Positions 19,802 through 34,618 of a stretch of 36,800 bases of DNA are shown piece after piece. Within the stretch, counting starts at the first letter, position 1. Each line of letters begins with the position of its first letter. Source of the stretch: Actinomycetota bacterium (GTDB lineage: Bacteria; Actinomycetota; Thermoleophilia; Solirubrobacterales; JBBDJG01); NCBI GenBank assembly GCA_046725795.1, contig JBKOZI010000104.1, forward strand, positions 1 through 36,800, written 5' to 3'. Under the pieces are notes generated by a model. The model searched no databases and was not told the DNA's origin. It saw nothing but the letters and a program-made list of their open reading frames with translations. A program made the translations under genes and the position numbers.

Positions 19802-20737
19802 ATGAGCACGGAGACAGACAGCAGCCGCAAGCACCACGGCGTCGCCGCGCTGCGCCGCCCGTGGGGCAGAAGGAACGGCAGGGCTCATCTGACCCGCGAA
19901 GACGAGTTCACCGGCCAGCGGCACGTCTACGAGCCGCACGCCGCGGGATTGCCGCCGCTCCGGTCCTACGTCCGTGAGCTGTGGCGTCGCCGGGAGTTCG
20001 CCCTGGAGCTGTCGCGCACCAGGTTGCGCGCGCAGCACTTCAACACGGTCTTCGGGCAACTCTGGCTGGTGATCAACCCCCTCCTGCTGGCCGGGGTCTA
20101 CTTCGTGCTCGTCGACATCATCCGGCCGAGCTCGCGCGGCCTCGACTTCTTCGCTCACCTGATGGCGGGACTCTTCGCCTACTACTTCGTCTCGAACGCC
20201 TTGCGGGAGGGAGTCAAGTCGGTCGTGAAGGGCGGCCGGCTGATCCTCAACACCGCCTTCCCGCGCGCCCTGCTCCCACTCTCGTCGGTGATCACCTCGT
20301 TCATGCGCTTCGTCCCGACGATCTTCATCTACGCACCGGTGCACCTGATCGCGGGACTACCGGTCGGGCCGCAGCTCCTCTGGGTGCTGCCGCTCGTGGC
20401 GCTCTTCTTCGTGCTTTCGGCCGGCCTCACGATGCTGGTCGCGGCGGGTCAGGTGTACTTCCGTGACCTCGCGAACTTCCTGCCCTACGCGCTGCGGGTC
20501 TGGCTCTACATGTCGCCGATCCTGTACTACGCAAGCGAAGTCCCCGAGCGCTACAAGTGGGTCCTCGACGTGAACCCGATCGCGCCGCTGCTGACCGCAT
20601 GGAGCGACGTGCTGAATGCGGGCCATGCGCCGAACGGCGGCGACCTGGCGCTGGGCGCGGCGTGGGCGTTTGCGCTGTTCATCGCCGGGGCGCTCTTCTT
20701 CACGTCGCGGGAGCGTGAGTTTGCTGTCCGCCTCTGA
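19802..20737 (+). CDS. ABC-2 polysaccharide/teichoic acid exporter permease (TagG/Wzm family)
   Basis: LWRRREF, FGQLWLVINPLL, FPRALLPL, FRDLANF, YMSPILY, VNPIAP; about 6 TMs. Confidence 0.93.
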   Translation: MSTETDSSRKHHGVAALRRPWGRRNGRAHLTREDEFTGQRHVYEPHAAGLPPLRSYVRELWRRREFALELSRTRLRAQHFNTVFGQLWLVINPLLLAGVYFVLVDIIRPSSRGLDFFAHLMAGLFAYYFVSNALREGVKSVVKGGRLILNTAFPRALLPLSSVITSFMRFVPTIFIYAPVHLIAGLPVGPQLLWVLPLVALFFVLSAGLTMLVAAGQVYFRDLANFLPYALRVWLYMSPILYYASEVPERYKWVLDVNPIAPLLTAWSDVLNAGHAPNGGDLALGAAWAFALFIAGALFFTSREREFAVRL

Positions 20738-21503
20738 CCAGCACAGCGTCTGCGTCGAGGACGTCTCGGTCACGTATCGCACGTCGTTCGAGCGTGCGCC
20801 CACGCTGCGGAGCACGATGCTGCGGCTCGGCCGCCGGGAACGCATGGTCCGCGAGATCGAGGCCTTGAAGGGCGTCTCGTTCGACGTGAAGCACGGCACC
20901 GTGCTGGGCGTCATCGGGGCGAACGGCGCCGGCAAGTCGACGCTGGTCCGGACGGTCGCCGGCATCCTGCCTCCGACCACGGGCCGCGTCGAGGTACGCG
21001 GCCGCGTGAGCACCCTGCTTGCGCTCGGCGTGGGGTTCAACCGCGACCTGAGCGGTCGTGACAACGTCGTGCTCGGAGGGCTCGCGGCCGGCCTCACCCG
21101 CGACCAGATGGCGGAGAAGTACGACGAGATCGTCGAGTTCGCCGAGCTCGCCGACTTCATGGACCTGCCGATGCGCACCTACTCGTCGGGCATGTACGGC
21201 AGGCTCGCGTTCTCGGTCGCCGTGAACATGGATCCCGACATCCTGCTGATCGACGAGGCCCTGTCCGTGGGCGACGCGCGCTTCCGCCGCAAGTCCTTCG
21301 AGAAGATGCGCGAGCTCTGCGGCCAGGCGCGGACGATCGTGCTCGTGAGTCATTCGATGGGCAGCATCAGCGAGCTCTGCGACCAGGCGATCTGGATGCA
21401 CGGCGGCGAGATGCGGCTGTGGGACGAGCCCGACGCCGTGATCGAGGCCTACACGAACTTTCTCGACGTCAAGGACGACGCGATTACGCGCGAGGACGTC
21501 TAG
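20715..21503 (+). CDS. ABC polysaccharide/teichoic acid exporter ATPase (TagH/Wzt family, no C-terminal CBM)
   Basis: ALKGVSF, Walker A GANGAGKST, YSSGM signature, ILLIDEALSVGD, VSH. Start is GTG 20715 or TTG 20721. Confidence 0.95.
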   Translation: MSLLSASDQHSVCVEDVSVTYRTSFERAPTLRSTMLRLGRRERMVREIEALKGVSFDVKHGTVLGVIGANGAGKSTLVRTVAGILPPTTGRVEVRGRVSTLLALGVGFNRDLSGRDNVVLGGLAAGLTRDQMAEKYDEIVEFAELADFMDLPMRTYSSGMYGRLAFSVAVNMDPDILLIDEALSVGDARFRRKSFEKMRELCGQARTIVLVSHSMGSISELCDQAIWMHGGEMRLWDEPDAVIEAYTNFLDVKDDAITREDV

Positions 21504-21666
21504 TGGTCCGTCTCGGAACGTTGGCCTCGAAATGGCGAGGGCCGGGCGTCGGCAGGCGAGGACGCAGGAAGCCCGAATACTGGGCAGTATTCGGGCGACC
21601 GAGGACGAAGCATGGCGGCGATCCGGTGCCGCCATTTCAGGTCGAACGTTTCGGGACGGGCCACTA
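21501..21666 (+). mobile_element. 166-nt palindromic hairpin element, copy 1 (MITE / RPE- or ERIC-like architecture)
   Basis: TAGTGGTC...GGCCACTA termini; 38-nt arms (21500-21537/21630-21667, 31/38 complementary); central perfect hairpin gcccgaatactg/cagtattcgggc; TA at both ends. Confidence 0.8.
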
Positions 21667-23133
21667 GGCACCGCAATTCGGCGCGGCGTACACGAGCCAC
21701 GACCCGTTGCCGTACAGCCGGCTGTAGCTCGCTGGAGGCTTGTAGCGAGGAAAGTTCTTCTTGTAGAAGCCGCGGACGTGTGGCACCGACCGCGGTACGA
21801 CCAGCAGGCGGCCAAGCGGGCTGGCGCCGCTCTCGACCGTTCCGACAGAGCCCGGCCGCCCGTCGAGCCAGTACCGCAGGTAGGGGATCGGTCGGTGGTC
21901 CGCCGCCGAGAGCGGAGCGCATGCGGCGAATGCGTCCCGCACCGGTTTCGCCTGGCCGAGTGACCGCAGATCCGCGTACAGCCTCCCGTTGCGCTCGATT
22001 GCCTTGTGAACGCCCTCCAGCATGTCGGCGTGGCGCGGGATAAAGGCGACCGACAGGGCGAGTGCGAACATTCCGGCCGCCAGCCACCGGCGCCGCGCGC
22101 GACCTTCCGGCAGCAGCGCCCAACCGCACACGGCGAGACCGTAGAAGAGCGCCAGCAGAATCGCGGGCGTGCGGAGGTACCTGCCGATCAACGGCAGCCC
22201 GAAGACCGGGCCGATCGCAAACACCGCGGTCATCGCAGCGGCCACGACCACGGGCAGGATCCCCTCACGGCGGCGGTAGAGCCACGCGAACGCCAGCCCG
22301 ATCGGAACGCCGATCACCAGCGGCTCCCGGAGCGTGAACCCGAAGTACTGCGCGGTCCAGTAGGGCACCTGACTGATGTGGCGACGGCGGTCCTGCTCAT
22401 CGGCCAGCGCGGCTGTGCCGTGAAGCGAATGGAGCGCGTCGTGGGCGATCAGAAGATCGCTCAGCATCCACACCGCCGGCGCGGACGCGGCGATCGCGAA
22501 GAACGCGACGCGGGTTCTCGCCGAGACCGCCGGCCACATGTAGAGGACGTACAACCCCGACAGGAACCAGGCCTCAGGACGTAGCAGCCCGGCGACGGCG
22601 AGCACCGCGAGCACCACGGCGCCTCGTCGAGGACGCCGCGCCTCGAGCAGAACCGCGCCGACGATCAGTGCCGCGAACGGGATGTCCTGGTACGCCAGCA
22701 ACGCGTCACGCTCGAGCGCGGGTCGGGTGAACACGACCGCAGCAGCGACCACGCCCGCCCAGGGCGAGAACAGCTGGGCGCCGAGCCGGTAGACGAGCCA
22801 GACGAGCGCACCGAACGAGAGCAGCACGACCCAGGTCATGAGTTGGTCCGACGCAGCGAAGGGATGCACGAGAAAGCTGATCGCGGTCTGCAGCGGATGC
22901 GGAGTGGGCGCGAACGGCGCCCCGTAGTCGGGACGGACGCCGTCCCAGAGGTCGCCTGCCCAGAGCAGCGCATAGCGGGCGTCGTAGTTCAGGTACCAGG
23001 GGTCGTAGACGACACGCAGCAGCACCGCGACCCCCACGATCGTCGCGGCCGGGACCGCGAAGCGCGCGATCGACCGCGGGATCGGCGCGACCGTGGCGGG
23101 CGCGGAGGGCGTGGTCGTGGAGCTAGTGGTCAC
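21664..23133 (-). CDS. Polytopic membrane protein, probable GT-C fold glycosyltransferase (PMT/ArnT-like)
   Basis: First TM followed by loop YLNYDARYALLW, then PTPHPL, AYQDIPF, AGLLRPEAW, GRYL; about 11-13 TMs. Start GTG 23133; ORF is open to 23181. Confidence 0.75.
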   Translation of the reverse strand: MTTSSTTTPSAPATVAPIPRSIARFAVPAATIVGVAVLLRVVYDPWYLNYDARYALLWAGDLWDGVRPDYGAPFAPTPHPLQTAISFLVHPFAASDQLMTWVVLLSFGALVWLVYRLGAQLFSPWAGVVAAAVVFTRPALERDALLAYQDIPFAALIVGAVLLEARRPRRGAVVLAVLAVAGLLRPEAWFLSGLYVLYMWPAVSARTRVAFFAIAASAPAVWMLSDLLIAHDALHSLHGTAALADEQDRRRHISQVPYWTAQYFGFTLREPLVIGVPIGLAFAWLYRRREGILPVVVAAAMTAVFAIGPVFGLPLIGRYLRTPAILLALFYGLAVCGWALLPEGRARRRWLAAGMFALALSVAFIPRHADMLEGVHKAIERNGRLYADLRSLGQAKPVRDAFAACAPLSAADHRPIPYLRYWLDGRPGSVGTVESGASPLGRLLVVPRSVPHVRGFYKKNFPRYKPPASYSRLYGNGSWLVYAAPNCGA

Positions 23134-23289
23134 GGTCGTGAGTACGGTCGTGCTTGGGCGAGCGAGAACCAAGGCTGGCAAGGACGCAGGGAGGTCGCAT
23201 GCCTAAATGGCATGTGACCGACCGAGGACGCCACCAGGTGCCGGTTCGCAGCCGGCCAAGTGCGGGCGTATTTACGATCGGGGCCACTA
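23124..23289 (+). mobile_element. 166-nt palindromic hairpin element, copy 2
   Basis: TAGTGGTC...GGCCACTA termini; 34-nt arms with 25 Watson-Crick + 7 G-U pairs; central hairpin ggtcgcatgcc/ggcatgtgacc; same internal motifs as copy 1. Confidence 0.8.
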
Positions 23290-24384
23290 ACCATCCGGAT
23301 GTCCGAGCGCATCCACGACCGCGCGCGCGACATCCTCGCCGTAGGTGGGGCCCATTGGGAGCGCGAGGTTCGTGGCGGCCGCCTCCTCCGTGCCCGGGAG
23401 CTCGGCGCCCTTGGCGTACGGCTCCATCCCAGGCTGCCGATGGACGGGAACGCGGTAGTAGCTGCGTGCTTCGACGCCCGCATCCCGGAGGCGGCGCGCC
23501 AGCGCGTCGGGGGCCTCGGCCCGCGTCACGTAGAGATGGTGCACCGGCTCAGTGCCGCCCGGTACGCGAGGTAGGTCGACGTGCCGATCCAGACCCGCTT
23601 GCGTGTAAGCCGCGGCAAGGGCACGGCGGGCCGCGTTGAGGGCGTCGAGCCGCGGAAGCACGGCTCGCAGAACCGTGGCCTGGATCGCGTCGAGCCGCGA
23701 GTTGAAGCCGATTGCGCTGAACCTGTCCTTGTCACGCGAGCCGTGCGCGTGCAGGAGCCTCGCCTTCGCCGCCACCTCCTCGTCGTCGGTTGCGATCGCT
23801 CCTCCGTCGCCGAGGCAGAAGAGGTTCTTGGATGGAAAGAAGCTGAACATCGCTGCATCGCCGAGCGCGCCGGCCCTGCGTCCGTGCAGGGAGGCACCCG
23901 CCGCCTGCGCGGCGTCCTCGAGCACGGCGATCCCTCGCTCGCGCGCGAACGGGACGATCTCGTCGAGCGGCGCGGGCGTCCCGAACAGGTGCACGGCGAC
24001 GATCGCCTTGGTGGCCGGCGTGACCGCCCGCTCGACGGTCTCGCGGGTGATGCAAAATGTCTCGGGATCGACATCGCAGAAGACCGGCCGTGCGCCGGTG
24101 TGCGGGATTGCCTCGGCGCTCGCATAGAACGTGAACGACGGCACGAGTACGTCGTCGCCCGGTCCAACACCCAGCGCGAGCAGCGCGATCGTGAGGGCGT
24201 CCGTGCCGTTACCCACGCCCACCACGTGCTCTACGCCCAGGTAGGCGGCGAGCTCGCGCTCGAACGCCTGGACCTCCGGCCCCAGGATGAAACGGCCGGA
24301 CTCGACCACGGCGGCGATCCGGCTCTTCAGCTCGGGCTGCAGCTCCCTCAAAACCTCGCGGGTGTCGAACAGGGGAATCCGCAC
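23287..24384 (-). CDS. DegT/DnrJ/EryC1/StrS family PLP-dependent sugar aminotransferase
   Basis: FILGPEV, GNGTDAL, VHLFG, EDAAQA, FSFFPSKNL (PLP lysine), GDGG, GFNSRLD. Start GTG 24384 (MRIPLFD) or 24393. Confidence 0.95.
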   Translation of the reverse strand: MRIPLFDTREVLRELQPELKSRIAAVVESGRFILGPEVQAFERELAAYLGVEHVVGVGNGTDALTIALLALGVGPGDDVLVPSFTFYASAEAIPHTGARPVFCDVDPETFCITRETVERAVTPATKAIVAVHLFGTPAPLDEIVPFARERGIAVLEDAAQAAGASLHGRRAGALGDAAMFSFFPSKNLFCLGDGGAIATDDEEVAAKARLLHAHGSRDKDRFSAIGFNSRLDAIQATVLRAVLPRLDALNAARRALAAAYTQAGLDRHVDLPRVPGGTEPVHHLYVTRAEAPDALARRLRDAGVEARSYYRVPVHRQPGMEPYAKGAELPGTEEAAATNLALPMGPTYGEDVARAVVDALGHPDG

Positions 24385-24422
24385 GACGGTCACGCTACCC
24401 TGCCGTTCAGCACGGACGGCCC

Positions 24423-25070
24423 TTGGCGCTCCTTACGACAGCCTCCCTGACCGGACCGCTCGTCGACTTCGCGACGAACGTGATCGGCGACCTCGGCACC
24501 GCCGGGATCTTCATCCTGATGCTGCTGGACAGCGCCTGCATCCCCACGTCGAGCGAGGCGATCATGCTCTTCGCGGGCTTCAAGGTCGCGGACGGCCGTT
24601 TCACGATGCTCGAGATAGTGATCGCGGGTGTGGCCGGAAACCTGGTCGGGTCCTGGGTCGCATACGGAATCGGCTACTACGGCCGGGTCGAGCTGCTGAA
24701 GCGCCATGGTAAGTGGCTGCACATCGGCCCGAAGCAGATCGCGTGGGCCGACCGCTGGTTTGAGCGCTACGGCGACGCCACAGTGTTCTTCTCCCGCATG
24801 CTGCCCGTGATCCGGACGTTCATCTCGCTCCCTGCCGGTGTCGCGAGGATGCCGTTCTGGCGGTTCAGCGTGCTCAGCACGATCGGAATCATTCCGTGGG
24901 TGCTCGCCTGGGGGATCATCGGCAAGCAGGTCGGCAGCGACTGGGACAAGCTCCAGGAGAAGGCGCACTACGCCGACTATGCGATCGTCGCGGGGATCAT
25001 CGTGACGATCCTGTACTTCGTCCTTCGCCGGCGCGCCGGGAAGCCCGCAACCAACACCAGCGGGCCTTGA
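24423..25070 (+). CDS. dedA: DedA family membrane protein (candidate undecaprenyl-phosphate flippase)
   Basis: DSACIPTSSEAIMLFAG, GNLVGSWVAYGIG, WFERYG...FFSRMLPVIRTFISLPAG. Confidence 0.93.
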   Translation: MALLTTASLTGPLVDFATNVIGDLGTAGIFILMLLDSACIPTSSEAIMLFAGFKVADGRFTMLEIVIAGVAGNLVGSWVAYGIGYYGRVELLKRHGKWLHIGPKQIAWADRWFERYGDATVFFSRMLPVIRTFISLPAGVARMPFWRFSVLSTIGIIPWVLAWGIIGKQVGSDWDKLQEKAHYADYAIVAGIIVTILYFVLRRRAGKPATNTSGP

Positions 25071-25945
25071 GCGACGACCGGCTCCCGATCGCGCACGCGG
25101 CCGTGCTCGGCGCGATCCAGGGACCGGCCGAGCTGCTGCCGATCTCCAGCTCCGGCCACCTCGTGCTCGTGCCGGCGATGCTCGGCTGGCGGTACCGCGA
25201 GCTCGATCCCGAGATCCGGAAGTCGGTCGAGGTGGCCCTGCATGCGGGGGGCGCCGCGGCGCTGCTGATCGGCCTGCGCAAGGAGGTCGCCGAGTACGTG
25301 CGGTCCTTCGGGCTCCACAACCTTGCGAGCCTGGCACTCTCCTTCGCACCCGCGGCTGCGATCGCTCTCCGGTTCGAGCAACCCATCGAACGCCGGCTTT
25401 CCGAGCCGCGCCCCGTCGCGATCGCGCTGCTCGCGGGCTCGGCCGCGATGGCCGTCGCCGACGGCCGGCCCGAGCGCCGCGGGCGCAGGGACGCAAGCCT
25501 CGTCGACGCCGTGGTGATCGGAGCTGCACAGGCGTTCGCGCTCGCACCAGGGGTCTCCCGCAACGGGGCGACTCTCGCCGCGGCGCGCTGGCGCGGCTTC
25601 CGGCGACCGGACGCGAACGTGATCTCGCGGCAGATCGCCCTGCCCGTGATCGTCGGCGCGACGGCGCTGAAAGGCGCCCGCCTCGCGACGCGCGAGCTTC
25701 CGCCGGGGATCGGGCAGGGAATGGCGGCAGGCGCGACGGCGGCGTTCTGCTCGACGCTCGTCTCCATGCGCCTGATCGCGATGCTCGAGCGCAGCCGGTC
25801 GCTGCTTCCATATGTCGCCTACCGCACGGTGCTCGGGACGGCTGCCCTGCTCGCGCTGAGAAAGCGCGCTCGGAGCCGGCAACCCGCCCCGCTCTCGATG
25901 AACGGCCACCGTGCCGCGGAGCGCGTGGCCACTCCAGTTCAATAG
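25067..25945 (+). CDS. uppP: Undecaprenyl-diphosphate phosphatase (BacA/UppP)
   Basis: GAIQGPAELLPISSSGHL, VALHAG, AQAFALAPGVSRNGAT. TTG start overlaps the dedA TGA. Confidence 0.9.
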   Translation: MSDDRLPIAHAAVLGAIQGPAELLPISSSGHLVLVPAMLGWRYRELDPEIRKSVEVALHAGGAAALLIGLRKEVAEYVRSFGLHNLASLALSFAPAAAIALRFEQPIERRLSEPRPVAIALLAGSAAMAVADGRPERRGRRDASLVDAVVIGAAQAFALAPGVSRNGATLAAARWRGFRRPDANVISRQIALPVIVGATALKGARLATRELPPGIGQGMAAGATAAFCSTLVSMRLIAMLERSRSLLPYVAYRTVLGTAALLALRKRARSRQPAPLSMNGHRAAERVATPVQ

Positions 25946-25950
25946 CGGCA

Positions 25951-27030
25951 GTGAACCAGGGAGACGCGTACGCCGCAGCCGGCGTCGACACCGCCGAAGC
26001 CGGGCGCGCGATCGACGCGCTCGTCGCTGTTCTGAAGACGATCGATCCCGGGAGGCCGTCGAGCGCTGTCGTCGGCGCCGGCCATTACGCAAGCGTGCTC
26101 GCGCTTGACGGGCAGACCGGCATCGCGCTCTGCACCGACGGCGTCGGTACGAAGCTGATCGTCGCCGAGCAGGCGGGCCGCTTCGACACGGTCGGGATCG
26201 ACTGCGTCGCGATGAACGTAAACGATCTGATCTGCGTCGGCGCGGAGCCACGCGCGATGCTCGACTACCTCGCGGTCGAACAGGCCGACGCGGAGGTGCT
26301 CCAGGCGGTCGCCCGGGGGCTCAAAGCAGGTGCGGAGCGGGCGGGGATCGAGATCCCCGGCGGCGAGCTTGCGCAGCTGCCCGAGATGGTGCGTGGACAT
26401 CCGTCACCACACGGGATCGACCTCGTCGGGGCGGCTTTCGGCACCGTGGACCTCGACCGGATCGTGACGGGAGATGCAACCAGGCCTCGAGACGTGCTGC
26501 TGGGACTGCCGTCGAGCGGGCTGCACTCGAACGGGTTCACGCTCGCGAGGCGTGCGCTGCTCGAGCGGGGCGGCCTCACGCTCGAAGAGTCTCCCGTGGA
26601 GCTCGGCCGCACGGTCGCGGACGAGCTGCTCGAGCCGACCGAGATCTACGTCCGCGCGATCCTCGACCTGCTCGGCTCGGGCCTCGAGGTTCACGGACTG
26701 GCCCACATCACCGGCGAAGGCCTTCTCAACCTGCTGCGCTTGAATGACTCCGCCGGATACGAGATCGACGAGCCGCTTCCCGCCCAGCCCGTGTTCGGCC
26801 TGATCCAGAGACTCGGCGAAGTGCCGCGAACCGAGATGCACCGGGTCTTCAACATGGGAACCGGCTTCGTGTGCGCTCTCGCACCCGATCACGCCGAGGA
26901 CGCGCTCGAGCTGCTTCGCGGGCACTACCCGGCCGCGGCGAGGATCGGAGGCGTGACCGGAGCCGCCGGAACAGTGGTGCTCCCGGCGGCGAGCCTGGTG
27001 GGCGACTCGGACGGCTTCCGCGCCCTCTAG
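25951..27030 (+). CDS. purM: Phosphoribosylformylglycinamidine cyclo-ligase (AIR synthase)
   Basis: YAAAGVD, TDGVGTK, GIDCVAMNVNDL, GGELAQLP, SSGLHSNG, AHITGEG, FNMGTG. Confidence 0.96.
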   Translation: MNQGDAYAAAGVDTAEAGRAIDALVAVLKTIDPGRPSSAVVGAGHYASVLALDGQTGIALCTDGVGTKLIVAEQAGRFDTVGIDCVAMNVNDLICVGAEPRAMLDYLAVEQADAEVLQAVARGLKAGAERAGIEIPGGELAQLPEMVRGHPSPHGIDLVGAAFGTVDLDRIVTGDATRPRDVLLGLPSSGLHSNGFTLARRALLERGGLTLEESPVELGRTVADELLEPTEIYVRAILDLLGSGLEVHGLAHITGEGLLNLLRLNDSAGYEIDEPLPAQPVFGLIQRLGEVPRTEMHRVFNMGTGFVCALAPDHAEDALELLRGHYPAAARIGGVTGAAGTVVLPAASLVGDSDGFRAL

Positions 27031-28346: not shown

Positions 28347-29831
<1,485 letters not shown>

Positions 29832-32671: not shown

Positions 32672-34618
32672 TCAGGGAACCACTCCGGGCGCGGGCGTGG
32701 TGGTGGTGAGCTCGCCGACCGTGAGCGCCACCGTCGACCCCTCGCGGCGCTCCACGCCGCCGCGAGGCGACTGGGAGAGGACCGTTCCGTCTTCCTCGGG
32801 CAGATCGGTCGGCCGGGTTCTGACCGACGGCGCGAATCCGGCATCCCGGACCTGAGACTCGGCGTCAGCCTGACTCAGGCCGGTCACGTCGGGAACCTCC
32901 TTGACCTTCCCGTTCGACACGAAGATCGTGACGGTCGAGCCCTGGTCGATCTGCTGGCCGCCCACGGGCGTCTGGCTCACGACCGTCCCGGCCGGCTCGC
33001 TCGAGGCCTTCTCGCGCACGATCGCGGTCAGACCCTTCTCACGCAGCGCCGCAACGGCCTCCTGCTCGTCCTGGCCCGTCACATCGGGGACCTCGACCAG
33101 CTCGGGTCCGCTGCTGACCACGAGCGTCACGGTCGACCGCCGGTCGACCGGGCGGCCGCTGCTTGGATCGGACCGGATCACGATCCCGGCGGGAACCTTG
33201 ACCGAGCTCTCGCGTTCCGACTGCGGCCGCAGACCGGCCGCGCGCACGCGTCGCTTGGCGTCTGCCTCGGTGAGACCTACGACGTCGGGCACCTTCACGG
33301 TGCCCGGGCCATTGGACACGAACACGGCCACCGTGGAGCCGTCGTCGACCTTCCTGCCGGCGTTCGGCGCCTGATCGAACACGATGTCACGCGGGGCCCG
33401 ATCCGCCCTTCGCCGGATGTCGATCTGCAAGCCGGCGCGCTCGATCTCGGCACGGGCACTGTCCAGCGTCTGCCCGACGACGATCGGGACGCTGACCTGA
33501 TTGGGCGAGCGCAGCGCGAAGAGGGCGATCAGCCCGAGCGCCAGCAGCGCGAGCGCTGCGACGGGCCAGACCCAGCGGTAGCGTCGACGGCGCCTGTCTC
33601 CGGGCGGCTCTCCGGGCGGGGGTGGCGGCAGCACGTCGATAACCTCGGCTTCGACCGGCGGCGACCCGTCGATCGTTGCCGGGGGAACGACAGCGGTCGG
33701 AACCGATACCGGGGGGGCCCCGGCCGGGGGCGCCCCGGCGGCGACGGGTGCGAAGACCGCGGTGCTCTCCATGTCCGCCGGTCCCCGCCCGAGGCGCGAT
33801 TCGACGGCATCGAGGTCGCGCAGGAACGACTCGGCGTCGGGATACCGATCCTGCGTGTCCTTGGCGAGCGCCTTCAACACGACGGCGTCGAGATTTCCCG
33901 GGATCGTGGGGACCAGCTCGCGGGGGGAAAGCGGGGTTTGGTTCACGTGCTTCAGCGCGATCGCGACCGCGCTCTCGCCCTCGAACGGGGCCTTCCCCGT
34001 CAGCAGCTCGTAGAGCACGACTCCCACGGAGTACAAGTCGGACGCCTGGGTCACGGGCCGGCCCTGTGCCTGCTCCGGCGAGAGGTACTGCGCCGTGCCC
34101 ATGATCGCCCCGGCCTGTGTGATGTCAGAGGCGCCGGCGCGCGCGATGCCGAAGTCGGCGACCTTGACGTTGTCCTCGGCGTCGAGGATCACGTTGTGGG
34201 GCTTGAGGTCCCGGTGGATGACGTTCCGCCGGTGTGCGAAGCGGGCAGCGAGCAGGATCTGCTTCGTGATCGCAATCGCGCGGCGGATGTCGAGCGGGGC
34301 CTCCGACCGGATCACGTCCTTGAGCGAGCGGCCCTCGCAGTACTCCATCGCGATGTAGTAGGTGTCCTCGAACTCCCCGCGGTCGTACACGCCGACGACG
34401 TTCGGGTGCTGAAGCCCTGCAGCCGACGAGGCTTCGCGGCGAAAGCGCTCGACGAACTCCGTGTCCTGGGCAAACCGCCGGTGCAGCAGCTTCATCGCGA
34501 TGCGGCGGCCGAGGTGCGTGTCCTCCGCGCAGTAGACGTCGGCCATCCCGCCCGAGCCGATCTTGTGAAGGACGCGATAGCGCCCGTCGATCACGGTGTT
34601 CTGCGGGACCTCGCTCAT
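32672..34618 (-). CDS. pknB: PASTA-domain Ser/Thr kinase PknB/Stk1 (4 PASTA repeats)
   Basis: GSGGMADVY, HRDLKPHN, DFGIAR, GTAQYLSPEQ; Pro-rich linker; TM; four VP(D/I)V(V/T)G PASTA starts. Confidence 0.96.
   Translation of the reverse strand: MSEVPQNTVIDGRYRVLHKIGSGGMADVYCAEDTHLGRRIAMKLLHRRFAQDTEFVERFRREASSAAGLQHPNVVGVYDRGEFEDTYYIAMEYCEGRSLKDVIRSEAPLDIRRAIAITKQILLAARFAHRRNVIHRDLKPHNVILDAEDNVKVADFGIARAGASDITQAGAIMGTAQYLSPEQAQGRPVTQASDLYSVGVVLYELLTGKAPFEGESAVAIALKHVNQTPLSPRELVPTIPGNLDAVVLKALAKDTQDRYPDAESFLRDLDAVESRLGRGPADMESTAVFAPVAAGAPPAGAPPVSVPTAVVPPATIDGSPPVEAEVIDVLPPPPPGEPPGDRRRRRYRWVWPVAALALLALGLIALFALRSPNQVSVPIVVGQTLDSARAEIERAGLQIDIRRRADRAPRDIVFDQAPNAGRKVDDGSTVAVFVSNGPGTVKVPDVVGLTEADAKRRVRAAGLRPQSERESSVKVPAGIVIRSDPSSGRPVDRRSTVTLVVSSGPELVEVPDVTGQDEQEAVAALREKGLTAIVREKASSEPAGTVVSQTPVGGQQIDQGSTVTIFVSNGKVKEVPDVTGLSQADAESQVRDAGFAPSVRTRPTDLPEEDGTVLSQSPRGGVERREGSTVALTVGELTTTTPAPGVVP

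What the first reader, a model, noticed from the sequence alone, without database searches (positions are those of the whole stretch)
23118..23294. Copy 2 split a coupled degT/GT-C junction and rebuilt coupling through a 54-codon bridging ORF
Seen (- strand): removing the element and one TA gives gATGGTTAGCTCCACG, where an ATG overlapping the degT stop reads MVSSTTTP in frame with the GT-C gene, a typical 8-nt overlap. With the element present (+164 nt, a frameshift), that ATG (23294) reads 54 codons through the element with no stop. It ends at TGA 23130-32, which overlaps an element-supplied GTG (23131-33) in the GT-C frame (GTGA), giving MTTSSTTTP. Inference: direct evidence of insertion, and a way for the element to stay harmless inside an operon or to become a translational control device.
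Basis: partly seen in the sequence, partly recalled or inferred. Interest (0 to 1): 0.72.

Follow-up and report, generated by a model that had tools for sequence, protein, structure and literature searches.

The report
Mobile repeat splits overlapping gene junction
A small mobile DNA repeat landed exactly in the stop codon where two overlapping genes of a soil bacterium met, and the repeat itself now supplies a new start codon and an open reading frame that could hand ribosomes on to the second gene, much as is already proposed for mycobacterial MIRU repeats.

Summary
Observation confirmed. On the minus strand degT (23287-24393) ends at TAG 23289-87. An ATG at 23294 overlaps that stop by 8 nt and reads 54 codons through a 162-nt TA-flanked inverted-repeat element (23126-23287) to TGA 23132-30. 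That TGA overlaps GTG 23133-31, which is in frame with the downstream membrane-protein gene (21664-23133). Two same-genus genomes lack the element, and there the downstream gene's start overlaps the degT stop by 8 nt. So the insertion and the split junction are real. The element belongs to an IS630-type MITE family: 35 hits in this 58%-complete MAG, with its core found across Thermoleophilia. Many copies lie in (C)TAG at stop codons and regenerate the stop.

'Rebuilt coupling' is plausible but not shown.
- Against: about half of all frames this long are open here. A second 54-codon ORF (GTG 23287 to TAG 23123) also spans the element. A built-in ORF is not seen class-wide.
- For: no other start, SD or promoter was found. 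The GTG lies in a -76.7 kcal/mol hairpin. The downstream gene is intact with no rate acceleration. Only 5 of 44 simulated family insertions give such a relay.

Precedent: MIRUs. Verdict: a new variant of a known kind, of moderate interest.

The parts
23287..24393 (-). degT-type sugar aminotransferase gene; first gene of a two-gene unit
   Evidence: Pfam PF01041 E=8.8e-108. NCBIfam best hits are PseC, DesI and ArnB-like, all below cut-off. GC3 is 0.85. The ORF listed upstream on the same strand (24390-25991) is not coding: GC3 is 0.58, and uppP/BacA lies on the + strand there.
23287..23289 (-). degT stop codon TAG, made of the left TA of the target plus the first base (G) of the element
23292..23294 (-). 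ATG that overlaps the degT stop by 8 nt; the former start of the downstream gene, now the start of the 54-codon bridging ORF
   Evidence: G002 has an ATG and G001 a GTG in the same 8-nt overlap.
23126..23287 (-).
   Evidence: nhmmer E=2.2e-41. Alignment with sister copies C3 (91%) and C142 (88%). It folds into one long hairpin, -76.7 kcal/mol, z=-3.5. It is absent from the orthologous loci.
23182..23231 (-). Conserved core of the element: two GCGTCC-containing boxes around a covarying hairpin
   Evidence: The same core pattern occurs in at least 121 loci of Thermoleophilia MAGs. A hairpin of at least 6 bp is present in 104 of 121, with 54 distinct stem strings.
23130..23294 (-). Bridging ORF 1: 54 codons in the frame of the old start codon, ending at TGA 23130-32
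   Evidence: no Pfam match
23123..23287 (-). Bridging ORF 2: 54 codons. Its GTG is the first three bases of the element and overlaps the degT TAG by 1 nt (TAGTG). It ends at TAG 23123-25, formed by the right TA plus G.
   Evidence: The same frame is open in 20 of 22 full-length copies of this genome.
23131..23133 (-). GTG in the right terminal inverted repeat, in frame with the downstream gene and overlapping the TGA of ORF 1 (GTGA); the most likely new start
   Evidence: It is paired in the terminal stem of the predicted hairpin.
23170..23181 (-). Two alternative in-frame TTG codons (23179-81 and 23170-72) inside the element, downstream of the last in-frame stop (TAG 23203-05)
   Evidence: no purine-rich SD precedes either (read directly)
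21664..23133 (-).
   Evidence: Homologues were found in 32 of 41 related genomes searched. It is 77% and 75% identical to the G002 and G001 orthologues, with fewer lineage-specific changes than either (30 against 42 and 51). No HMM or PDB match. ESM Atlas neighbours carry PMT_2, PMT or MptA_B.
21503..21664 (-). Second family copy in the window (subfamily F), flanked by TA 21665-66 and TA 21501-02. It sits in a CTAG shared by the stop of the membrane-protein gene and the stop of the convergent ABC-ATPase gene (20616-21503, + strand).
   Evidence: nhmmer E=9.2e-22. ATPase: NCBIfam TagH/Wzt-like. Absent from G001 and G002.

Best explanation
A 162-nt non-autonomous inverted-repeat element of an IS630-type, TA-targeting family inserted into the TA of the degT stop codon. 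It did so in the lineage of this Thermoleophilia soil MAG, after that lineage split from its two sequenced congeners.

Before the insertion, the downstream membrane-protein gene began at an ATG overlapping that stop by 8 nt, and was presumably translated by coupling. The insertion kept the degT stop, because the element begins with G. It cut the downstream gene off from its start codon and shifted its frame.

The gene is now most likely translated from GTG 23133 in the element's right terminal repeat. Ribosomes leaving degT would start again at the old ATG 23294, and possibly also at GTG 23287 (TAGTG). They would translate through the element, which melts its long hairpin. They would terminate at TGA 23130-32 (or at TAG 23123-25) and reinitiate at the overlapping GTG. 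The new protein would differ from the old one only at its first residues.

Shown: the insertion, the frames, the hairpin prediction, the intact downstream gene. Inferred: that the ORFs are translated, that restart occurs, and which start codon is used. The arrangement came with the element and was kept by selection. It is not a design feature of the whole family.
For: - Empty sites with an 8-nt stop/start overlap are present in 2 of 2 same-genus genomes, and degT is adjacent to the membrane-protein gene in both.
- None of the 19 orthologous loci holds a family hit.
- Both junctions are bridged by independent metagenome contigs.
- Frames and codons are verified.
- The only in-frame start codons upstream of the first membrane helix are TTG 23181, TTG 23172 and GTG 23133, all inside the element.
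- No SD-like purine run precedes any of them and there is no TANNNT motif in the element (read). The consensus scan found no promoter or terminator.
- The element folds into a single hairpin of -76.7 kcal/mol (z=-3.5), with the GTG in the terminal stem. Independent initiation there should therefore be poor unless upstream translation opens the stem.
- The downstream gene is intact over 489 codons. It shows fewer lineage-specific amino-acid changes (30) than its congeners (42, 51).
- In a simulation, each of the 22 full-length family copies was placed at this site in both orientations. Only 5 of 44 outcomes put the stop of the ATG frame within -25 to +10 nt of a usable in-frame start, and only 22 of 44 offer any in-frame start. 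This fits a selective filter.
- Both the RNA-unfolding and the reinitiation models of coupling are established, and MIRU ORFs are a published precedent (PMC12548453, passages).
Against: - There is no expression or ribosome evidence of any kind.
- An open 54-codon frame is expected about half the time: 52% of frames in random windows, and 10.8 of 22 expected in shuffles.
- The GTGA is an inherited part of the terminal repeat and is also in copy C3. It is not a repair.
- In an independent class-wide set of 22 TA-bounded elements, no frame is preferentially open (8-13 of 22 in each frame) and lengths are spread over all residues mod 3 (9/7/6).
- Orientation bias at co-directional junctions is weak: 9 against 3 in this genome (p=0.15), and 29 against 14 when pooled with rough class-wide calls (p=0.03).
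- The insertion could be too recent for decay of an unexpressed gene to show. The sister copies differ by 9-12%, but that divergence may predate insertion.
Confidence: 0.55

Rival explanations
1. The insertion is real, but the downstream gene is translated independently of the bridging ORFs. Ribosomes would bind de novo at TTG 23181, TTG 23172 or GTG 23133. This could happen after the long hairpin is cut by a double-strand-specific RNase, or while it breathes. The ORFs through the element would be incidental.
For: - Three in-frame start codons exist.
- Open frames are common at this GC content.
- Neisseria Correia elements, also TA-flanked inverted repeats, are bound or cleaved by RNase III and change expression of neighbouring genes (PMC2649163, abstract seen in the listing; PMC10969869 passages).
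Against: - No SD-like sequence precedes any candidate start (read).
- All candidates lie in the paired right arm of a -76.7 kcal/mol hairpin.
- The old ATG and its upstream context are untouched, so initiation there should persist and ribosomes should traverse the element anyway.
- Only 5 of 44 simulated insertions give the stop-start overlap that is seen.
Confidence: 0.2
2. The insertion silenced the downstream gene, or nearly so. The gene is intact only because the event is recent, and the ORFs and the GTGA have no consequence.
For: - The original start was lost, a 164-nt structured spacer was introduced and no SD is present.
- Subfamily A was found full length only in this genome, as 3 copies among the 18 family genomes searched, which fits recent activity.
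- A paralogue exists elsewhere in the genome (C128, 37% identity).
Against: - The gene is intact over 489 codons and shows no excess of lineage-specific changes (30 against 42 and 51).
- The three subfamily-A copies already differ by 9-12%. If that divergence arose after insertion, it leaves time for an unexpressed gene to decay.
- The filled site occurs in soil runs of different years and studies, and no empty allele was seen. These are contigs only, so this is weak.
Confidence: 0.2
3. Assembly artefact: the MAG contig is wrongly joined through a repeat, and the element does not really lie between these two genes.
For: The genome is a fragmented MAG (151 contigs, 58.6% complete), and the element is a multi-copy repeat.
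Against: - degT is adjacent to the membrane-protein gene in both congeners.
- Contigs from three other runs cross the junctions with 0-1 differences.
- The flanks fit the empty site base for base, apart from the duplicated TA.
Confidence: 0.03

Closest known systems
MIRUs (mycobacterial interspersed repetitive units)
   Same: [quoted passage not shown] This is proposed to let the repeat insert with minimal effect on expression (PMC12548453, passages read). Copy 2 shows the same -4 overlap (GTGA).
   Different: As I recall, MIRUs are short direct or tandem units. They lack terminal inverted repeats, have no TA flanks and no IS630 link. The review says they insert at start codons, whereas this family inserts in TAG or TA at stop codons. 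No sequence comparison with MIRUs was made here.
IS630 / Tc1-mariner-type bacterial MITEs (for example Correia elements of Neisseria, RUP of pneumococcus)
   Same: Shared features are small size, terminal inverted repeats, TA at both ends, many copies, co-transcription with neighbouring genes as a long hairpin, and a conserved core between the repeats (Correia: PMC2649163 abstract; PMC10969869 passages). A 1194-bp IS with a DDE_3 transposase, TA flanks and matching 36-nt ends exists in a same-family genome. The CTAG preference of IS630, and RUP's mobilisation by an IS630-type element, are recalled and come from no call.
   Different: The core sequence is unrelated as far as tested (no Rfam hit). 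The matching IS ends fit 12 of the 22 copies but not copy 2's subfamily, which shares only the terminal TAGTGGCC. No role as a donor of a start codon or as a translational relay is described for those elements in the passages I read.
Chunjie MITE of Geobacter uraniireducens
   Same: A MITE found inside an operon. The original paper's title says the operon structure was not disturbed (seen in the reference list of PMC10969869; the paper itself is not held).
   Different: The review passage says it disrupts one of two phosphate-uptake operons. I could not read whether a coupling ORF was analysed.
Rickettsia palindromic elements (RPE)
   Same: Palindromic repeats of about 150 bp that carry an open frame and are tolerated inside translated regions (PMC10969869 passages).
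   Different: RPEs become in-frame parts of host proteins. Here the element sits between two cistrons, and its ORFs would be separate short peptides.

Membership tests
IS630-type (TA-targeting) MITE | Terminal inverted repeats | tested here: met
   The ends pair over the whole arms in the predicted fold. The termini TAGTGG...CCACTA are shared with sister copies.
IS630-type (TA-targeting) MITE | TA target-site duplication | tested here: met
   The filled site has TA on both sides. The empty site in G002 has a single TA within CTAG. 13 of 22 full-length copies have TA at both delineated ends. Caveat: TA is its own reverse complement, so a duplication cannot be told apart from a 2-nt extension of the inverted repeat.
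IS630-type (TA-targeting) MITE | Small, multi-copy, no transposase of its own | tested here: met
   The element is 162 nt. There are 35 nhmmer hits in the 2.02-Mb MAG. The 54-residue ORF has no Pfam match.
IS630-type (TA-targeting) MITE | Autonomous partner with the same ends | tested here: inconclusive
   No DDE_3 was found in G000, which is 58.6% complete. DDE_3 was found in 2 of the 18 family genomes searched. One 1194-bp IS (L155:1317-2510) has TA flanks and 36-nt ends that are 78-94% identical to 12 of 22 G000 copies, including window copy 1 (86%). Copy 2's subfamily gave no match.
MIRU-like coupling repeat | Lies between co-oriented genes of one transcription unit | tested here: met
   Copy 2 lies between degT and the membrane-protein gene. 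9 of the 28 stronger hits in G000 lie between co-oriented genes in the same orientation as copy 2, and 3 in the opposite orientation (rough gene calls).
MIRU-like coupling repeat | ORF in the repeat overlaps the upstream stop and the downstream start | tested here: met
   ATGGTTAG is at the left end and GTGA at the right. In other junction copies the right-end TAG abuts or lies 4 nt before the downstream ATG: C100, C111, C70, C29 and C105.
MIRU-like coupling repeat | The ORF is a conserved property of the repeat family | tested here: not met
   Within G000 two frames are open more often than in shuffles (17 and 20 of 22, against 10.8 expected), but these copies are kin. In 22 independent TA-bounded elements from other Thermoleophilia genomes every frame is open in only 8-13 of 22, and length mod 3 is 9/7/6.
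MIRU-like coupling repeat | Translation of the repeat ORF and dependence of the downstream gene on it | not testable with these tools
   No RNA holder is listed for this stretch, and the organism is uncultured.
MIRU-like coupling repeat | Sequence relatedness to MIRUs | not tested
GT-C fold glycosyltransferase (label of the downstream gene) | Match to a GT-C family model or a solved GT-C structure | tested here: not met
   No Pfam hit and no NCBIfam hit. No PDB hit by single sequence or by a 15-sequence profile.
GT-C fold glycosyltransferase (label of the downstream gene) | Polytopic membrane protein with a conserved acidic residue in the first loop; relatives in PMT-like families | tested here: inconclusive
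   N49-Y50-D51 is invariant in 15 orthologues. ESM Atlas feature neighbours carry PMT_2, PMT or MptA_B, which is a lead only. No structure was predicted.
DegT/DnrJ/EryC1 aminotransferase (upstream gene) | Full-length match to the family model | tested here: met
   PF01041, E=8.8e-108, positions 5-359 of 360.

The most novel reading that the evidence does not exclude
In GC-rich Thermoleophilia these IS630-type MITEs may act as stop-codon-homing elements. TA and CTAG are scarce in such genomes outside TAG stops, and the element's G...C ends regenerate TAG on both sides. The elements therefore colonise gene ends and operon junctions. At junctions they would survive only when they relay ribosomes, as in copy 2, where the terminal repeat donates a new start codon and a hairpin-gated stop-start overlap. 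That would make translation of the second gene strictly dependent on translation of the first. It would be a mobile, ready-made translational coupling or control cassette.
Probability: 0.25. Interest if true: 0.68.

Novelty: new variant of a known kind. Interest (0 to 1): 0.5.

Why it matters
- It is a clean natural before-and-after case, with filled and empty sites in one genus. A mobile repeat destroyed an overlapping stop/start junction, yet the downstream gene stayed intact. The repeat supplies the new start codon and a ribosome path.
- It extends the MIRU idea to a structurally different, TA-targeting inverted-repeat family in a poorly studied soil class.
- It suggests why such elements pile up at stop codons in GC-rich genomes: 12 of 22 full-length copies abut a flanking gene's stop.
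- It has practical consequences for annotation. Gene callers would probably pick TTG 23181 or miss the coupling. The family is in no Rfam model although its core occurs in at least 121 loci of Thermoleophilia MAGs.

Tried and rejected
- **Rfam:** a scan of 22900-23500 at E up to 10 gave no match on the element. There was one chance-level hit in degT.
- **Expression:** no RNA holder is listed for the stretch.
- **Population polymorphism:** no empty-site joint appeared in the contigs of 4 soil runs, and no single contig spans the whole element.
- **Family-wide built-in ORF (TAGTG to TAG):** this looked promising in G000. Frame 2 is open in 20 of 22 copies, and by my own count from the lengths listed, 18 of 22 lengths are 1 mod 3. 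It failed in the independent class-wide set.
- **Element ends in family relatives:** delineating TAG-type ends worked for only 1 of 24 hits, so I dropped that test.
- **GTGA overlap at the degT start:** I first took the ORF 24390-25991(-) for an upstream gene overlapping the degT start. It is not coding (GC3 0.58), and uppP lies on the other strand. That argument was withdrawn.
- **Window inverted repeat 28866-29021 / 33944-34099:** this is not a copy of the element. It aligns as two paralogous coding stretches. The kinase-like label is recalled.
- **Internal promoter:** none by the sigma-70 consensus scan, and no TANNNT in the element by eye. Actinobacterial promoters are poorly covered by that scan.
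- **Downstream protein:** no family match by HMM or PDB sequence search.
- **Literature:**
  - No paper holds 'miniature inverted-repeat transposable' together with 'stop codon' and 'translational coupling'.
  - The search with Thermoleophilia, 'repetitive element' and MITE returned only papers on mites and unrelated MITEs in its 8 listed rows.
  - The Chunjie paper is not held.
Full report
**1. The observation**

Reading the minus strand:
- The DegT-family aminotransferase gene is 23287-24393 (Pfam PF01041, E=8.8e-108). It ends at TAG 23289-87.
- An ATG at 23294-92 overlaps this stop (ATGGTTAG). It reads 54 codons without a stop to TGA 23132-30.
- That TGA overlaps GTG 23133-31 (GTGA). The GTG is in the frame of the long downstream ORF, 21664-23133, or 21664-23181 from the first TTG.
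- Between the two lies a 162-nt element, 23126-23287, flanked by TA on each side. Element plus one TA is 164 nt, which is a frameshift.

**2. It is a real insertion into an overlapping junction**

- The downstream protein has homologues in 32 of the 41 related genomes searched (this tally includes the unpublished G004, on which no claim rests).
- Of the seven best loci examined, only the two same-genus ones (G002, G001) also carry degT directly upstream.
- In G002 the downstream gene's ATG overlaps the degT TAG by 8 nt (ATGGCTAG). In G001 a GTG overlaps the degT TGA by 8 nt (GTGCTTGA). In both, no other start codon precedes the first membrane helix, apart from one internal GTG at codon 13 in G002.
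- None of the 19 orthologous loci L012-L030 holds a family hit (nhmmer, E up to 0.01).
- The filled site differs from the G002 empty site only by the element plus a second TA.
- Contigs from other soil runs cross the right junction (X1 record 2 and X3 record 20, 0 differences) and the left junction (X2 record 12, 1 difference). One of these runs may be the MAG's source. No contig spans the whole element, and no empty-site joint was seen.

**3. What the element is**

- *Copy number.* A profile of the copies finds 35 hits in this 2.02-Mb, 58.6%-complete MAG, 22 of them full length.
- *Subfamilies.* By eye they fall into about six subfamilies with different arms. These share the termini (mostly TAGTGG...CCACTA) and a conserved core: two GCGTCC boxes around a hairpin whose stem covaries.
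- *Fold.* Copy 2 folds into one long hairpin of -76.7 kcal/mol, z=-3.5.
- *Rfam.* There is no match.
104 of these 121 keep a hairpin of at least 6 bp, with 54 different stem strings.
- *Autonomous partner.*
  - G000 has no DDE_3 transposase. Two of the 18 family genomes do.
  - One 1194-bp IS in G009 (L155:1317-2510) has TA flanks within CTAG.
  - Its 36-nt ends are 78-94% identical to the ends of 12 of the 22 G000 copies, including the second window copy (86%). They do not match copy 2's subfamily A.
  - Subfamily A was found full length only in G000, as 3 copies that are 88-91% alike, among the 18 family genomes.
- I therefore file the family as an IS630-type, TA-targeting MITE. The link for copy 2's own subfamily rests on the shared termini and core.

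**4.

- Twelve of the 22 full-length copies abut a flanking gene's stop codon exactly (using rough GC3-based gene calls).
  - In six (seven counting a TGA case) the upstream co-directional gene's TAG is the left TA plus the element's first G.
  - In six the convergent gene's TAG is the right TA plus the complement of the element's last C.
- The second copy in the window (21503-21664) sits in a CTAG that served as the stop of both the membrane-protein gene and the convergent ABC-ATPase gene (20616-21503). Both stops are regenerated.
- Class-wide, gene 3' ends face the element far more often than 5' ends: 61 against 22 on the left and 50 against 33 on the right, of 119 loci, with 36 uncalled on each side.
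- So copy 2 landing in the degT stop is typical for the family. Because the element begins with G, degT kept its stop.

**5. Is the bridging ORF special?**

*By itself, no.*
- 52% of frames in random 162-nt windows of this genome are open. Dinucleotide shuffles of the elements give 10.8 of 22 in this orientation.
- The GTGA is part of the right terminal repeat and also occurs in sister copy C3, though not in C142. It arrived with the element.
- A second ORF of 54 codons spans the element in another frame. It starts with the element's first three bases (GTG 23287-85, overlapping the degT TAG as TAGTG) and ends at the regenerated right-hand TAG 23125-23.

*Within G000 there is a pattern, but it does not hold class-wide.*
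- At other co-directional junctions the right-hand TAG abuts the downstream ATG (C100, C111, C70) or lies 4 nt before it (C29, C105).
- That suggested a built-in relay ORF. The copies are kin, however.
- In an independent set of 22 TA-bounded elements from other genomes, every frame is open in only 8-13 of 22, and lengths are 9/7/6 over the residues mod 3. I therefore reject a family-wide design.

*The complete arrangement is not trivial.*
- I placed each of the 22 G000 copies at this site in both orientations.
- Only 5 of 44 outcomes put the stop of the old-ATG frame within -25 to +10 nt of a usable in-frame start. With the 13 copies whose ends are TA as found, it was 2 of 26, both from copy 2 itself.
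- Only 22 of 44 offer any in-frame start.

**6. How it most likely works**

degT is the first gene of a two-gene unit. The ORF listed upstream on the same strand is not coding, and uppP lies on the other strand.

The downstream gene lost its own start. The only in-frame starts before its first membrane helix are TTG 23181, TTG 23172 and GTG 23133, all inside the element. None has an SD-like run. The element has no TANNNT, and the consensus scan shows no promoter or terminator. All three candidates lie in the paired right arm of the hairpin.

The old ATG and its upstream context are untouched, so ribosomes that used to start the membrane protein there should still start there. They would read through the element, opening the stem. 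They would stop at TGA 23130-32 on top of GTG 23133, at the -4 spacing most typical of coupled genes (PMC12548453, passages). The resulting protein would differ from the ancestral one only in its first two or three residues.

The gene is intact and has fewer lineage-specific substitutions (30) than its two congeners (42, 51). This argues against loss of function, unless the insertion is very recent.

All steps after 'the insertion happened' are inference. I put the relay at about 0.55, independent initiation at 0.2, a silenced but not yet decayed gene at 0.2, and artefact at 0.03.

**7. Comparison with what is known**

- *MIRUs.* The idea of a repeat carrying an ORF that couples to the gene at its insertion site at -4 nt is published (review PMC12548453, passages). 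The present element works like that but is not a MIRU by structure. MIRU structure is recalled, and no sequence comparison was made.
- *TA-flanked inverted-repeat MITEs.* By structure the element belongs with elements such as Correia, which affect neighbours through promoters, IHF sites and RNase III (PMC2649163 abstract in a listing; PMC10969869 passages).
- *RPEs.* These show tolerance of palindromic repeats in translated sequence, but as in-frame fusions (PMC10969869 passages).
- *Literature gap.* My searches found no paper combining MITEs, stop codons and translational coupling, and nothing on such repeats in Thermoleophilia among the listed rows.
- *The 'GT-C' label.* It rests only on language-model neighbours and an invariant NYD in the first loop. 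HMM and PDB searches found nothing.

**8. Verdict**

The functional reading is reasonable, has a published precedent, and is untested. This is a new variant of a known kind. Interest is moderate (0.5), mainly as a clean natural example and because of the stop-codon targeting of a widespread, undescribed element family.

Noticed in passing
window 21503-21664 (TA flanks 21665-66 and 21501-02): A second family copy of a different subfamily sits in a CTAG that is the stop of both the membrane-protein gene and the convergent ABC-ATPase gene. Both stops are regenerated. So the membrane-protein gene is bracketed by two elements in the same orientation, both absent from the congeners.
   Followed up: partly
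L155:1317-2510 (G009, same family): A 1194-bp IS with a DDE_3 (IS630-type) transposase and TA flanks in CTAG. Its 36-nt ends match 12 of the 22 MITE copies of G000 (78-94%), making it a likely autonomous partner of those subfamilies.
   Followed up: partly
L031-L151 (121 loci of public Thermoleophilia MAGs): The same ~50-nt core (two GCGTCC boxes around a covarying hairpin) is carried by elements with quite different arms and termini, some only about 100 nt long. Many begin at the upstream gene's stop codon. There is no Rfam family. It is unexplained why the core is kept while the arms change.
   Followed up: partly
L048 (Thermoleophilaceae MAG), flanks of the core: The right arm contains a perfect 16-nt reverse complement of the left flank, including the stop and the last 13 coding bases of the upstream gene. 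The stem therefore extends into the coding sequence. The orthologous locus L054 has the core at the same place with other arms.
   Followed up: no
G000 copies C30, C70, C100, C139, C10, C140: A 202-nt length variant carries an extra ~36-nt GC-rich hairpin module in the left arm. It occurs in two subfamilies.
   Followed up: no
G000:C147:5560-5732: A family copy lies inside what looks like the ATP synthase operon. The downstream gene starts MQIKPDEITNILK with its own GAGGGAG about 40 nt after the element. The atpA label is recalled and was not tested.
   Followed up: no
G000:C3:54339-54507: This sister copy of copy 2 is flanked by TGA on both sides instead of TA, and it is followed by a repeat of the element's first 8 nt. 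The downstream ORF appears to start with that repeated GTG.
   Followed up: no
window 24390-25991 (-): A 533-codon ORF that seems to overlap the degT start by GTGA is a shadow frame (GC3 0.58) opposite uppP/BacA (24896-25945, + strand). It is an example of how long spurious ORFs arise at 68% GC.
   Followed up: yes
window 28866-29021 and 33944-34099: A 156-nt inverted repeat, 71% complementary, that aligns as two paralogous coding stretches on opposite strands. The kinase-like motif is recalled. It is unrelated to the element.
   Followed up: partly
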